From Hydrolagus affinis (taxonomy: Eukaryota), in contig JAAILG010000990.1 in NCBI GenBank assembly GCA_012026655.1, positions 1-64,000 of the forward strand: 64,000 nt of DNA. The letters run 5' to 3'. Within the stretch, counting starts at the first letter, position 1; the number at the start of each line of letters is the position of its first letter. The notes below the pieces were generated by a model. It saw only the letters and a list, made by a program, of their open reading frames with translations. It did not search any database and was not told the origin of the DNA. The position numbers were made by a program, and so were the translations under genes. Of this stretch, positions 1 to 64,000 are shown in pieces.

Positions 1-280
1 CGACGCTGGCGAGAGCCCGCGGCCACAACAACACCACCCGAGGCCGAGGCCTCGCCGCGCACTTCACTCTCGGCCTCACCTCTGTCTCTGAGGCCGCGGC
101 TCCGAGCCTCGCTACCGCAGCCCGATCCTCATCACCGCTAACCCGCGGCGCCTTCAGCCCAACCCTGAGCCGACAACAACCCCGAGATCCCGACTCTGCC
201 GACCCGACTTCACCACACGGCTGGGCCCGAGTCTCAGCGCCACATGTCGCCGAGTAACTGACTGCGAGCGGGGGAGGGAG
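1..280 (-). promoter_or_regulatory. CpG island with probable non-coding first exon (~80-270, minus strand) of the next gene, likely SCAF11 by synteny
   Basis: Very GC/CpG-rich compared with the rest of the window. Minus-strand donor GAG|gtgag at 80/79. Gene identity inferred only from the mammalian order SCAF11-SLC38A1-SLC38A2, all on one strand. Confidence 0.5.
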
Positions 281-590
281 ACACTGTACTACTCGCTCCC
301 GCCACCGAGCGACGCTGTGTACACTGCACTACCAGCCCCCACCACCGAGCGGCGCTCTGTGTACTGCAGTACCAGCCCCCGCCACCGAGCGGCGCGGTGT
401 ACACTGCACTACCAGCCCCCGCCACGAGAGGCACCATGTACATTGCCCTACCCACCCAAGCCACCGAGAGGCGCTGTGTACACTGCACTAACAGCCTCCA
501 CCACCGAGAGCGCTGTGTACACTGCCCTACCCACCCAAGCCACCGAGTGGCGCTGCACTACCCGCCATCGAGCGACACTGCACTAACCCA
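281..590. repeat. GC-rich minisatellite, ~7 units of ~40 bp (ACACTGCACTACCAGCCCCCGCCACCGAGCGGCGCTGTGT)
   Basis: Units start at 281, 321, 361, 401, 440, 480 and 519, then degenerate to ~590. Confidence 0.92.
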
Positions 591-854
591 GTATTCGTCC
601 TGGCCTCAGACTGACGGTACGGTTTCGGTCGGCAGGCGGCGTTGTGGAGACTGGCCACTGAGTGGCGCTGTGGAGACGTGAACGAGCTGTCAACACCGCC
701 ACCTGCTGCTCGCTGGTGGCAACTACAAGAAACTGAGCAATGGGTGTCTGTCTGCCTTTTTCCCAAACTAAATACATTTTATATTAATATTTGATGGCAG
801 ACAGCAAACTTCTATGATTAGAATTCTGACCAACGATGTGTCAGCCTGGCACAG

Positions 855-43282: not shown

Positions 43283-54246
<10,964 letters not shown>

Positions 54247-58620: not shown

Positions 58621-59002
58621 TTGGAGTCCTATAGCTCAATGGTTAGAGCTCTCGCCTTTCAAGTGGGAGACATGTGTTCGAATCCAGGCAGCTCAAGGGG
58701 AAACCTTGGGCAAGTTTCCTTACTCCACATGCCTAATGATAATCCCTCCAAAAACAACCACAATAATATAATTGGTCATTTCAATCCATGACTGTTTGTG
58801 GGACCCTGCTGTGCGCAATTGGCTGCCGTGTTTTGCCCACAAATCTACAACAACAACTTTGATTTTTTTAGCGCCCTCCACGCCGGGTGGCATCTCAAAG
58901 TGCTTAAATACAGTCAATTCACTTCACAGTATATTCTATGAGGTGCTTTGAGACGTCTAGAAGAAAAGCATTACATTTAAATTCAAGGATTATTATTATT
59001 AT
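58621..59002 (+). mobile_element. Full-length tRNA-head SINE carrying a nested antisense L2-tail insert (~58845-58905)
   Basis: A box TAGCTCAATGG, B box GTTCGAATCC, Deu-like core, and a (TTA)n tail that abuts the LTR. Confidence 0.88.
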
Positions 59003-59587
59003 TGTTGAGTTACATGGAGATGTTCGCATTTCGAAAGATGCAAGGGCAGTTAATGGTGATAGTAAGAATGTTAAAATAAGGTGCTATTTGGAAACAACAA
59101 CTTCAATTTAAAGACTGGACAAAAGGCATGGTCAATCACATTAAGCAGATAACAGGAACACCCAAGTCATAACAATATGGACAGCCTTGGGAGAACACAA
59201 AGGAAGAGAGGAAGGGAATAAATACATGTCTGGAGCCTTACCTCTGGAACAGCTTAGTTAGCACATGGGTTTGATCATCTTAACAGCATGCAAAACCGAC
59301 ATGGATGGTCAAACCAGGATGATGCAAAAGGTATAAAAATCGGTGTCCAAAACAAATGAGTTAGATGCACCTCTGAGTGAGTTAGATGCACCTCCAAAAC
59401 AGGCCCGAGGTGGACGAGAGAGAAAAACAACAACAACAACAACAAAACATCCATTTGGTAGTATCGTTCTGTTATTACACTGTGAATAAAGTTTCAATTC
59501 CTGACCGGAATGGTATATTGAGATTGAACCTTATTTTAATAACATGATCCGGACTGTTGGTTACAAACAGCAGTGGCGGATCTAACA
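59003..59587 (+). repeat. 5' LTR
   Basis: Matches 63757-64000 with 14 substitutions over 244 nt plus one 18-nt indel (hand count). AATAAA near 59485. Confidence 0.92.
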
Positions 59588-59590
59588 ATT

Positions 59591-59608
59591 TGGCGTGGTT
59601 GTCAGGAT
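59591..59608 (+). other. Primer binding site, tRNA-Ser-like
   Basis: TGGCGTGGTTGTCAGGAT matches TGGCGTAGTCGGCAGGAT (complement of the tRNA-Ser 3' end) at 15/18 positions. Confidence 0.7.
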
Positions 59609-59820
59609 CTCAATTTGGGTTGAAACTTTCGTAATAAGATTAGAACCTAGTATGATAGTTACCGGAAGTAACAGGGACTACTAGTTATATTACTGTGTTA
59701 TAACACATTGGAACCTAGTACAATAGTTACTGGAAGTAACACGGACTAGTAGCTATATTGTTGTATCATAATATAAATTGGATTAATAATTGCCAGTAGT
59801 AATGTAATCGGGTCATAAGT

Positions 59821-61280
59821 ATGTCAGAAAGAGGAGAGGAAAAAAAAATAGATACCGCACAAAGCCTAAAGTGGGTAACTGACTGGGAGTCAAAAGCGCA
59901 TAAAGTTCATAAAGACAGTAAATGTAAGGAGGTGTTGTGGCAGTTATTGGCGTGTGAACTTGAGGGACACCAAGAGGTGTGTAGAAAGATACAGTACGAG
60001 ACTGAGAAGAGAGGGATGAAGGACAAGAAAAAGAAGGCTATTTTGAAAAAATGGTTAGTATTACAGGCCAGGAAAGATCAGGAGATGATAAACAACCTTA
60101 AGGGTCAGCTACAAGGAAGTGTCCGGTTAAACCAAGATAGGAAGATGGAGATGTATGTTCAGGGAAAGAAGCACCAGAAAATAGAACAAGAGTTAACACA
60201 GCGAGTGAGTATTACCAGAGCAGGGCACAGGTATTAGCGGGAACAATGAACGGGCTCGTCCTCCAGGCAACTATCTCCCAACAAGCAAGAGAAGAGTTAG
60301 AGCAGTTGAAAAAGGAAAACCAACTCCTTGAGTGGGAGATTAAATAGTTAAAACAAAGGGTCGGTGATCTCTAGGGAGCTTTGAGAGTGACCCGGAAGGA
60401 GAAAAAAGGCAGTGATATAGATCATGGACCATGTAAAGCGGAGAGAGACAGATTAATCGAGTGCTTGCGACAGAAAAGGGAGTTTGTATGTGCAGTAAAC
60501 AGGGATGACTCTGATTGGGATTAGTTTAACAATAAAGTGGCTAAATATCATGATGATGATCCTTATAATAATGTCTGTGTTGTAACCGAAACAACCAGAT
60601 TTGGTCCTACTCCGGCTGGAGGGGCTCCCAAATCAGTAGAAGGAATTAACAAATCTTGCCCCTAGCGCCCCTAGCGCCCCTAGTGGGAGAGAAAAAAGCA
60701 GTATAAGGATGAACTAGGATGTCCTTTGCGACTACATACCACATACTACATACTACATAAGAAATGTTTTATGGGAAAATTAACACCCGCCTTAAGAAAT
60801 TCACTGGGATTCGCTCACGAAACCCATGTTCCATGGGATCCCACCATAGTGGCGCTCAGTAGAGCTTTTCTGGCTTTGCAAGCTGAACCAAGAACAGAGG
60901 TTAATGAGGATGTGTGTATTGTGGAAGGACCTAATCTCCGAAGTAGTGGGAAAGATGAGATTTACCAACAAGGTGCGGGCCCTGGGTGAATAGGAAATTG
61001 TTTCTTGTGTGGACAGGCTGGACACTGGACAGGCGATAGAACATGTCCAAACTATAAACCTGAGCATAATCAGTCTAGAGGGCCAGGTCGACAGTGGACC
61101 AGGTACCACGCAGGTTCCCCCCAAAATACCGACCCTAGATCCGATCATGAAATTGAGGAAATAGCTCGCCGGGTTAGCCAATTTATGCAAAACACACCAT
61201 CAGGTCCGATTGCTTCCGCTCCTGTTGCTTCAGTGGAGGGGAATGCACCTGCCTACCCACCCAACTCGCCGTCCTTATGA
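59821..61280 (+). pseudogene. gag-like pseudogene: charged coiled-coil-like N-terminus and zinc knuckle CFLCGQAGHWTGDRTC (60999-61046)
   Basis: Fragmented ORFs with stops and frameshifts. Confidence 0.75.
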
Positions 61281-61389
61281 AGGCATGCTGATAGTTGTGA
61301 CACTCACCCAAACTCTGGAAAATGTATTCCCTTTACACGGTCCCTTGTTCCCTGACCCTTTGTCACGGCTACCCTTGCCTCTAGACCAC

Positions 61390-63391
61390 AGAAATTATTG
61401 ATAGATACTAGGTCCACTCAGACTATTATACACACTACCCATTCTGAATCTCACCCCAAATTCTCCAGAGAACGAAAGATGCTATCCGGATTTAGTGGAA
61501 ACAATGTCCCCGCTTGTGTGGGAAAACCTGTTAATTTATCATTCAGCCCTCAAATACAAATTTGTGCTCCCCACCCAATACTAATGAATATGCCTAGCGG
61601 GCACGGACTATTGGGGAGCAAAGAATTACTTGCTAATTTGGCCATGGTCAACTATACCAATCATTGTATTTGGGTAAATAATACTAGAGGAAATTGCTCT
61701 GAGGTGGTTGATATAGTTGACGATGTATTTGCTGTGCATGCTATTAAAAAGTCTGAAGCTTACGCTTACCCCTAAGTCTAACCTACCCTGGGTGCAATCC
61801 CTTATTGATAAGCATGTCGCTGTTTTTGCACAGGGAAAGCATGATTGCGGACATTTAATGGGTGTGGAAGATATCAATGGTCCTACTCACTCGCCATGTA
61901 AACAATATCCCCTACCCATTGATGGTCATTCAGCAATCGCGGCCACTTTAAAGTCATTGCTGCTACAAGGAGTCATCCGCATTCACTACCAACTCGTCAA
62001 TTTGGCCAGTGCGCAAACCTAATGGATCATGGCGGTTGACCATAGATTACCGCAAACCCACATGTGCATCTGTTGTAAGTGAAACAGCTAAAGTCCTAGC
62101 ACTCCTACCACCTGGGACTAAGCTATTTTCTGCCTTAAAATCTAATCTAATGGATTTTGGAATATCCCTCTTAAAATGGAAGATCTATACAAATTTGCAT
62201 TTATTTTTAACGGCAGCAATACACTTGGACTTGTTTACCTCAAGGGTTCCACAACTCCCCCATTATTTTCCACAAACACATGGTTAAAATTTTAAAAGAC
62301 TGTGTTCCCTCACCTACTGGTGCCATTCTGCAGTATGTGGATGATATATTGATAACAGAGGAAGAATATCGAAATCTACTCGCAACAGTCCTACAGAAAT
62401 TACACTCGGCTGGGCTCAAAATTAACCTGCAAAGCTCAGCTGGCAGTTCCTCAGGTAACATTTTTAGGCCTCACCCTTGATTCAACAGGTCGAACACCTG
62501 ACCAACATAAGGTCAGCATTATCCAACATTTGCCTTTGCCCCAGACTAAGAATGCGATCATTTTTGGGACTTGTTGGTTATCAGTGCGTGCTTGTCACTC
62601 AGTTCTACGAAATAGCCAAATGTCTATATGACCTACTTAAAGGCACTAAGGAAGGCTCCATTTGCAGTCAGTGGACAGATACACATACACAAGCTGTGTC
62701 AGACCTGAAACAAGCTGTGATGCAGGCTGTTGCTTTAATATCTCCTGACCTCGAACTGTGTTTCCACTTAGAGGTTGCGACCACGGATATCAGCCTTCCC
62801 GCTGTACTGATGCAAATGTCAGATAGTCATTTACGTCCTATCGCTTTTACATTTCATATTTTAACAGGGGTCGAAAAGCAGTGCTCCCGCATGTTCTTGC
62901 CACCGTGTGGGCAGTTAAACACTTTACCTACATTACCGGCCTCCAGAAGATATTTCTTCACTCGCCACTCACACCATTGACACTACTGTTGAAAACTGGT
63001 GATACGTTAGCCTCCTCACAGAGACCCAGCCACTATGGACTCTCACTATGATGGGAAGAGACATCGAAGCCGTTACCGGGCCACTAACATTGTTGCCTCA
63101 AATGTTGATGTATGAGGGATCGCCTCACATTTGCCCTCTACCACTGATTCAGTTTACAGACCTACTTCTCGCTTTCCTTTAATGGGAACTGTGATTGATG
63201 TCTATATCGATGGTTTCTCATATTACATCGATGGAAAGGCTTATAACTGGATTCAGTTTATGCCAGCCTCACCAAATTATAAAGCCCCTGTGCACCTCGG
63301 GAAGGTCAAAGGACACACAACAGGCGTCCACTATTCAGATGGAAATGCCTTAGCGGATCGAATGGCCAAGCAAGCTGCCACGGACGGGTAA
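61390..63391 (+). pseudogene. pol pseudogene: protease, reverse transcriptase, tether, RNase H
   Basis: LIDTRS (mutated DTG); WPVRKPNGSWRLTIDYRK; YTWTCLPQGFHNSP; LQYVDDILI; RSFLGLVGY; FHLEV..LRPIAF; VYIDG..KVKGH..GNALADRMAKQAA. Confidence 0.9.
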
Positions 63392-63756
63392 CCAGTTGGA
63401 ACAATGAAGCTGCTCTGGATATGTGTTGTCATTGCAAGAACATTTGCGGAATTGGGAGGTCCTGATTGCCCCAAGGTTCCCCAACATCACTTTAATAATG
63501 ATAACAACCACCCCTGCAGCCGAGAAAGACCCAAGTGACTGTTGTGAAGAATCGGCCCCTGCTAATCACCTGCAAGGTTGAGTGGAGTGATCCTCGACAG
63601 ACATGCCGGCGGGTGCATTCATCGGACAGGATACATCACAGATGCAGATGGTCGTAATTTGGTATGAGGACATGTGACCCACAAACCGGGGGAAACCGTC
63701 ATTTAAAACATTGTCCAAAATGATACCTCCTTACAGTCGGTACCAAGTAGGGGGAA

Positions 63757-64000
63757 TGTTGAGTTACATGGGGACGTTCGCATTTTGAAAGATGCAAAGG
63801 CAGTTAATGGTGAAAGTAAGAATGTTAAAATAAACTGCTAATTGGAAAGACTGGACAAAAGGCATGGTCAATTACAATAAGCAGATAACAGGAACACCCA
63901 ACTCATAACAATATGGACAGCCTTGGGAGAACACAAAGGAAGAGAGGAAGGGAGTAAATACACGTCTGGAGCCTTACCTCCGGAACAGCTTAGTTAGCAC
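63757..64000 (+). repeat. 3' LTR (truncated by window), preceded by PPT AAGTAGGGGGAA
   Basis: Direct repeat of 59003 onward. Confidence 0.92.

What the first reader, a model, noticed from the sequence alone, without database searches (positions are those of the whole stretch)
59003..64000. LTR element with retrovirus-type pol architecture: candidate lokiretrovirus-like or basal retrovirus relic
Seen: RT motifs LPQGFHNSP and YVDD; a degenerate RNase H-like tether (FHLEV..AVLMQ..LRPIAF) followed by a second RNase H (VYIDG..KVKGH..GNALADRMAKQAA); a tRNA-Ser-like PBS; a long charged N-terminal gag region; and an unusually spaced knuckle CX2CX4HX6C. Known: LPQG plus tether and a second RNase H is typical of Retroviridae and their sister lineages, whereas typical Ty3/Gypsy elements have MPFGL and a single RNase H. 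Inference: this is a deep-branching retrovirus-like lineage. I do not recall lokiretroviruses being described from cartilaginous fishes, so it may extend their host range. LTR divergence (~6% over the 244 nt visible) suggests relatives may still be reconstructable.
Basis: partly seen in the sequence, partly recalled or inferred. Interest (0 to 1): 0.72.

Follow-up and report, generated by a model that had tools for sequence, protein, structure and literature searches.

The report
Dead fish retrovirus, not a lokiretrovirus
This is a broken, gutted copy of an endogenous retrovirus whose polymerase groups with ordinary retroviruses rather than lokiretroviruses and closely resembles a known elephant-shark family; it was likely copied with the help of intact relatives, and its nearest relatives carry an envelope predicted to be built like the fusion proteins of measles-type viruses.

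Summary
The anatomy is real: two LTRs (6.6% apart), tRNA-Ser primer site, gag with a CX2CX4HX6C knuckle, protease, RT, tether, second RNase H. But the 5,271-bp provirus has lost integrase, env and ~230 nt of RNase H, as has a second copy at another site: likely a non-autonomous deletion variant. It is not a lokiretrovirus: those have PFG-x-x-NSP, not LPQG; its RT lies inside canonical retroviruses (99/97); joining it to loki-type RTs is rejected (p=0.03), joining it to snakehead retrovirus is not (p=0.26); it matches the published elephant-shark family CmiERV lineage I / ca_mi_ERV1. 'Deep-branching' holds: its clade sits at the unresolved base of canonical retroviruses. Side result: its nearest env-bearing relatives in the genome have an F-type (paramyxovirus-like) env; a nested sister clade has gamma-type env instead. 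F-type env is thus no lokiretrovirus marker. Five literature searches did not show this in print, but the scan noted it four times before on other genomes. New member of a known kind; interest 0.33.

The parts
58999..59002 (.). 4-bp target-site duplication, left copy (TTAT; right copy at contig 64274-64277)
   Evidence: weak alone, the left flank is a TTA run
59003..59587 (+). 5' LTR (TG...CA; TATAAAA at 59332, AATAAA at 59485)
59591..59608 (+). primer-binding site, 15 of 18 to host tRNA-Ser(AGA)
   Evidence: relatives L023 and L027 match 18 and 17 of 18
59639..59771 (+). two 65-nt repeats, 68 nt apart, in the leader
59821..61280 (+). broken gag: charged, coiled-coil-like N-terminal half, partly deleted capsid region, nucleocapsid
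   Evidence: (coiled-coil families on the second copy)
60999..61046 (+). zinc knuckle with CX2CX4HX6C spacing
   Evidence: same spacing whole in L027 and L105, broken in C5565 and L028; X4 in six gamma-env or related copies and in the SnRV-type genome
61356..61775 (+). degenerate protease region
   Evidence: Pfam RVP E=0.007 on the second copy
61891..62641 (+). reverse transcriptase, five frameshifts
62672..63050 (+). tether (degenerate first RNase H)
63197..63391 (+). second RNase H with about 230 nt of its core deleted near 63290
63392..63744 (+). unassigned remnant in place of integrase and env; a 44-codon frame from 63404 starts with a hydrophobic, signal-peptide-like stretch
   Evidence: no significant match to any env or other locus held except the second copy
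63745..63756 (+). polypurine tract
63757..64000 (+). 3' LTR, first 244 of 517 nt (ends at contig base 64273)

Best explanation
It is a dead, internally deleted endogenous retrovirus whose RT groups with canonical retroviruses, most likely in the snakehead-retrovirus-related (clade Huo / class III) assemblage and the lineage of elephant-shark CmiERV lineage I, and it was likely copied to this site as a non-autonomous passenger. Shown: LTRs, Ser primer site, polypurine tract, target duplication; no integrase or env; the same RNase H deletion and the same RNase H-to-3' LTR tail in a second copy with another 3' flank. Inferred: an already deleted provirus was transcribed from its 5' LTR, packaged, primed by tRNA-Ser(AGA), reverse-transcribed and integrated with RNase H and integrase supplied by an intact relative; afterwards each copy decayed on its own. 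Inferred by parsimony: the intact ancestor carried an F-type (paramyxovirus-like) env, as its nearest env-bearing relatives do, whereas a nested sister clade replaced it by a gamma-type env.
For: RT trees: window inside the canonical-retrovirus branch (99/97), the two loki-motif proteins sister to it (100/100), Gypsy outside (same shape with 72 rows). AU tests: with loki rejected p=0.030; with the SnRV-type RT not rejected p=0.255, broad Huo-like group p=0.133. Published ca_mi_ERV1 Pol matches 34 of 48 residues around the two RT motifs (counted by eye); the lineage I provirus of Han 2015 has the same LTR-end/primer-site junction and clusters with SnRV there. Shared deletions; 3' flanks differ. 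A contig of coded organism A spans both junctions at about 97% identity. Env on the RT tree: F-type in L027 (in the window's sister pair) and L099/L100 (outside), gamma-type (TLV_coat) in 6 rows of one clade (100/100); window with that clade rejected p=0.009. Env profile: top 5 of 11 PDB matches are parainfluenza F, best E=0.0014; fold search: all listed PDB rows are pneumo/paramyxovirus F or foamy Env.
Against: The free trees do not join the window clade with SnRV: SnRV falls nearer foamy and ortho-retroviruses (88/93), so 'Huo' rests on a test not rejecting it and on the papers. RT identity to SnRV (44%) is little above that to loki-type RTs (40%). The loki rejection is modest, from a quick tree with two loki-type rows; no Odin, no named ERV-L or ERV-S row was available. 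ca_mi_ERV1 could not be put into my tree. The window copy has no env, its link to L027/L028 has only 88/77 support, and only 3 F-env rows had enough RT. The fold is of a shark homologue, mean pLDDT 46.8, TM-scores 0.10-0.19. The second copy lacks its 5' part, so only one flank could be compared.
Confidence: 0.82

Rival explanations
1. It is a lokiretrovirus, the first from a cartilaginous fish.
For: Dual RNase H with KVKGH, which occurs 27 times in the loki supplement; F-type env in its nearest relatives; the one loki-type integrase in my tree falls among this basal group (82-85); coiled-coil N-terminal gag recalls the loki smc gene.
Against: RT motif and tree. Loki-type Pol as query finds at best 27-43% identity among 53 scored candidates of 1202 in this genome; a loki motif pattern finds 0. 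RNase H of the window clade does not join loki+foamy (weak). F-type env also matches foamy, WDSV and WEHV Env and aligns weakly to the SnRV-type Env, so it is not diagnostic; SnRV-type Gag has a coiled coil too.
Confidence: 0.04
2. It belongs to a separate, unnamed earliest branch of canonical retroviruses (cartilaginous fish, coelacanth, frogs) that earlier trees lumped with SnRV in clade Huo.
For: Window clade plus Xenopus, other frog and coelacanth proteins is 99/98 and stands at the basal polytomy, apart from SnRV; integrase and RNase H also fall away from SnRV; primer site differs from that of the SnRV-type genome.
Against: Monophyly with SnRV is not rejected; basal forks are under 90; long branches meet near the root. 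The lineage is already catalogued as CmiERV lineage I. This rival changes the name of the clade, not the mechanism.
Confidence: 0.3
3. It is a Ty3/Gypsy retrotransposon with a second RNase H (Odin-like), never enveloped.
For: No env in either deleted copy; databases name some relatives 'Gypsy retrotransposon integrase-like'; Odin elements have dual RNase H and no env.
Against: RT separated from Gypsy at 100/100 and nested in retroviruses; relatives at 56-66% RT identity carry env; integrase is missing too, so the gap is a deletion.
Confidence: 0.02
4. The shared deletions come from DNA-level duplication or gene conversion of one decayed provirus, not from copying in trans.
For: Only two copies found; three of the other LTR copies share a left flank, so duplications of this family do occur.
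Against: The 3' flanks differ right after the LTR end; distance between the copies (K2P 0.099) is of the order of the LTR distance (0.074) and of solo LTRs (0.08-0.14).
Confidence: 0.12

Closest known systems
CmiERV lineage I (Han 2015, PMC4422223) / ca_mi_ERV1 (Xu et al. 2018, PMC6001957), elephant shark
   Same: LPQGFHNSP RT neighbourhood (34 of 48 residues, by eye), protease-RT linker, LTR-end/Ser primer-site junction, cartilaginous-fish type host
   Different: Different LTR sequence by eye; this copy is 5.3 kb against 9.6 kb and lacks integrase and env; env type and knuckle of CmiERV-I were not seen
Snakehead retrovirus and clade Huo / class III ERVs
   Same: LPQGFH-x-SP motif, dual RNase H, coiled-coil Gag N-terminus, non-gamma Env that aligns weakly with the env of the window's relatives (E=5e-5 pairwise; 352 columns, probability 25%)
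   Different: 44% RT identity only; X4 knuckle and another primer site in the SnRV-type genome; not sisters in my free trees
Lokiretroviruses (Wang and Han 2021, PMC7947760)
   Same: tether plus second RNase H with KVKGH; F-like env in relatives; integrase of relatives near the loki-type one (weak)
   Different: RT motif and position; no loki-type Pol found in this genome
Odin retrotransposons (PMC9040795)
   Same: dual RNase H
   Different: sea-anemone elements, sister to loki, no env in the family; not available for my tree

Membership tests
Lokiretrovirus | RT in the loki clade, sister to all canonical retroviruses | tested here: not met
   AU p=0.030; two loki-type rows picked by motif
Lokiretrovirus | RT motif PFG-x-x-NSP (seen in the paper's alignment; my use as a marker) | tested here: not met
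Lokiretrovirus | tether plus second RNase H | tested here: met
   shared with all retroviruses
Lokiretrovirus | Env like Mononegavirales F | tested here: inconclusive
   absent from the element; present in nearest relatives
Lokiretrovirus | integrase close to CGIN1/NYNRIN | tested here: inconclusive
   absent from the element; relatives near the one partial loki-type integrase at 82-85; database names 'NYNRIN-like'
Canonical Retroviridae | RT inside the retrovirus clade | tested here: met
   99/97
Canonical Retroviridae | LTRs, tRNA primer site, polypurine tract, gag-pro-pol order | tested here: met
Canonical Retroviridae | env and integrase | tested here: inconclusive
   deleted here; present in relatives in the same genome
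Clade Huo / SnRV-related class III | Pol or RT groups with snakehead retrovirus | tested here: inconclusive
   not in the free tree, not rejected; Han 2015 places lineage I with SnRV
CmiERV lineage I / ca_mi_ERV1 | Pol clusters with ca_mi_ERV1 | not testable with these tools
   published sequence seen in supplements only; compared by eye
Spumaretrovirinae / clade Tu | RT in the foamy clade; Gag without zinc knuckle (recalled) | tested here: not met
   knuckle present; fish foamy-like ERVs were not in the tree
Ty3/Gypsy (Metaviridae) | RT in Gypsy clades, single RNase H | tested here: not met

The most novel reading that the evidence does not exclude
The element marks an earliest-branching group of canonical retroviruses that kept the ancestral kit shared with lokiretroviruses (F-type Env, CGIN1/loki-like integrase). 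Then an F-type fusogen was present in the common ancestor of all retroviruses and lokiretroviruses, is kept in foamy, SnRV-like and walleye viruses, and gamma-type Env came in by replacement, one such swap being caught inside this single genome; the window's sub-lineage also fixed an unusual CX2CX4HX6C nucleocapsid knuckle.
Probability: 0.4. Interest if true: 0.68.

Novelty: new member of a known kind. Interest (0 to 1): 0.33.

Why it matters
The locus itself is an ordinary fossil. Its family matters for one open question: Wang and Han left four scenarios for the origin of retroviral Env open. F-type env next to a canonical RT, with gamma-type env nested inside that clade, favours the scenarios in which the F-type protein is ancestral, and warns against calling an element a lokiretrovirus from its env, its KVKGH RNase H or its dual RNase H.

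Tried and rejected
Loki motif pattern in the genome: 0 matches; an incomplete genome, so no proof of absence. LPQGFHNSP pattern and a relative's Pol in IMG/VR: nothing. First tblastn read-through of the window RT ran across frameshifts and was replaced by a frameshift-aware one. L054 was labelled delta from its length; the tree shows it is gamma-type. Pfam names no family for the F-like env pieces or their four homologues; single-sequence PDB searches with one env piece and with the SnRV-type Env gave nothing; direct BLAST of one env piece to the SnRV-type Env was not significant. The protein atlas gave no answer. The tail 63392-63756 matched no env. Three loci with a 15-base tRNA-Ser match held no tRNA gene; a longer pattern found the genes. 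No RNA holder listed. No host gene was recognised among 18 long frames of the window, so the host class is inferred. The NYNRIN paper had nothing on this clade in the passages seen. The SnRV genome paper is not held. RNase H and integrase trees are mostly unresolved.
Full report
Anatomy. The element runs from window base 59003 to contig base 64273 (5,271 bp). The LTRs differ at 34 of 516 aligned bases (K2P 0.074), which is 17 My at the mammalian rate or 168 My at the shark rate assumed by Han 2015; neither rate is known to fit this host. TTAT stands on both sides. The primer site matches 15 of 18 bases of the host's tRNA-Ser(AGA), found in G000 and named by ARAGORN. Gag, protease, RT, tether and a second RNase H follow. 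RT has five frameshifts. About 230 nt of the RNase H core are gone; integrase and env are absent; 365 nt of unassigned sequence, a polypurine tract and the 3' LTR close it.

Family in the genome. The LTR matches 9 places, two of them this element's own (a lower bound). The internal part has one long second copy, C5565, and a fragment, C19892. C5565 shares the RNase H deletion and the tail, has another 3' flank, lacks the 5' part, and is 0.099 away. Each copy also has deletions of its own. So the main deletions came before the copying, and a genome without RNase H core and integrase cannot have copied itself: helper proteins are inferred. Public runs of coded organisms hold the element; one contig of organism A spans both deletion junctions with 31 other letters in about 950. 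No contig shown bridged the flank, so orthology of the insertion is not shown.

Host. Not shown directly. The genome has 1.11 Gb; the paper's table gives 0.97 Gb for elephant shark and 2.9-4.5 Gb for four sharks; the closest published element is from elephant shark. A cartilaginous fish, probably a chimaera, is my inference.

Placement. References came from tools: 120 of 310 protein hits, among them two with loki-type motifs (P0019, P0027) as read in the loki paper's RT alignment, and IMG/VR genomes found by motif: 16 foamy-type, one 10,688-nt SnRV-type, 18 gamma/delta/epsilon-type, 17 beta-type. These carry no names; labels rest on motifs and recalled lengths. Of 188 RT rows I used 72, 46 and 34, leaving out near-duplicates and most Gypsy rows. 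In both drawn trees loki-type rows are sister to all retroviruses, as published, and the window lies inside the retroviruses (99/97), in a clade with Xenopus, other frog and coelacanth proteins (99/98) at a basal polytomy. Holding it with loki is rejected (p=0.030), with SnRV not (p=0.255). Against a simple 'SnRV sister': the free tree puts SnRV elsewhere (88/93) and identities are 44% to SnRV, 40% to loki types, 37% to the best foamy row. The published ca_mi_ERV1 Pol reads like this element around both RT motifs (34 of 48 residues by eye), and the lineage I provirus on elephant-shark scaffold 2 has the same LTR-end/primer junction; Han 2015 clusters lineage I with SnRV, and Xu 2018 defines clade Huo as SnRV-related and present in all major vertebrate lineages. 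That ca_mi_ERV1 is the scaffold 2 family is inferred from coordinates; that it lies in Huo I saw only as label order in a figure's text. A loki-type Pol finds only 27-43% identity in G000 (53 scored of 1202 candidates). The six cartilaginous-fish genomes I looked up in the loki paper's table carry no asterisk, which I read as no loki found.

Envelope of the relatives. The RT piece finds 147 matches in G000; I fetched 20 of those contigs and 14 more later. Six carry gamma-type env (TLV_coat on L013, L018, L023; L014, L019, L022 by similarity). The nearer L027, with the same X6 knuckle, carries a different env, also in L088 and L089. Its relatives are four proteins among 1.84 billion representatives (E 5e-7 to 8e-4), from two sharks and two frogs, and a fifth shark protein. 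A profile of these hits parainfluenza F in the PDB (E=0.0014; top 5 of 11 matches). A low-confidence model of the shark protein P0121 (pLDDT 46.8) matches RSV, parainfluenza, henipavirus and metapneumovirus F and foamy Env, and WDSV and WEHV1 Env and baculovirus F among predicted structures. The SnRV-type Env aligns weakly but in order. P0121 finds 44 matches in G000. On a 28-row RT tree F-type env lies in L027 and, outside, in L099/L100; gamma-type env is confined to one nested clade (100/100); the window joins L027/L028 (88/77) and is rejected from the gamma clade (p=0.009). L101 and L103, which also have F-type env, had too little RT and were left out. Parsimony gives F-type as ancestral, with one replacement; the window's own env is lost, so this is inference.

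Other domains. In quick trees of relatives, RNase H does not join loki+foamy, and the one partial loki-type integrase falls among the basal group at 82-85, SnRV apart: suggestive only. The X6 knuckle is whole in 3 elements (window, L027, L105) and broken in 2; whether it binds zinc is untested. A coiled-coil Gag N-terminus is also in the SnRV-type Gag and described for SnRV and Ovex1.

What I read. PMC7947760: parts 1-3 of 4, supplement part 68 and passages (the file is cut). PMC4422223: whole text, supplement passages. PMC9040795: part 1 of 4 and a search; its host figure was not seen. PMC6001957: passages and supplement passages. Passages only: 10.1101/2021.11.23.469661 (reports gamma-type env in SnRV-related ERVs and frequent recombination; supplements closed and may list this family), PMC10699275, PMC10435555, 10.1101/2023.10.26.564294 (treats F-like Env as a loki trait among retroviruses and defers vertebrate ERVs), PMC2717909, PMC9447858, PMC8922424. 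Five searches listed no paper that states F-type Env for SnRV-related ERVs; the library lacks most subscription papers. That foamy Env resembles paramyxovirus F is published (recalled, Calcraft et al. 2024) and agrees. Four earlier notes of this scan reach the same reading on other genomes; I had written mine before; none is in this genome.

Verdict. Observation confirmed; lokiretrovirus reading not supported; a decayed, non-autonomous member of a known cartilaginous-fish ERV lineage at the base of canonical retroviruses. Interest 0.33, most of it from the env history of the family, not from this locus.

Noticed in passing
P0121 and P0139 (database proteins of two shark species): Full-length F-type env frames of this family, 86% identical between a bamboo shark and a catshark, while relatives are 26-29% alike: a candidate host-co-opted env gene. 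Synteny and selection were not checked.
   Followed up: no
window 58624-58980: tRNA-Glu-like head (ARAGORN; Rfam below cut-off) of a very abundant SINE directly upstream of the 5' LTR; copies also near 51077 and 53196.
   Followed up: partly
G000, genome-wide: 268 exact matches to a 15-base tRNA-Ser 3' end against 1 in the control; 50 extend into the tRNA arm, many others are probably primer sites, so Ser-primed proviruses are numerous.
   Followed up: partly
L002, L003, L085 (C188231, C186706, C6415): Three LTR copies share the same left flank, so they were multiplied with their surroundings; L086 is a solo LTR with a near 4-bp duplication.
   Followed up: partly
L008 (C19892:12118-13236): The first 173 bases of the LTR stand directly before protease-RT sequence, a rearranged copy.
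   Followed up: no
L018, L022, L023: Young-looking gamma-env proviruses of the same clade, env 85-96% alike; integrase of this clade is named NYNRIN-like in databases.
   Followed up: partly
window 1-700: GC-rich repeated sequence with open frames in two phases; not examined.
   Followed up: no
ranks 2 and 6: Predicted Env structures of walleye dermal sarcoma and epidermal hyperplasia viruses rank above paramyxovirus F, hinting that epsilonretrovirus Env is F-type too.
   Followed up: no
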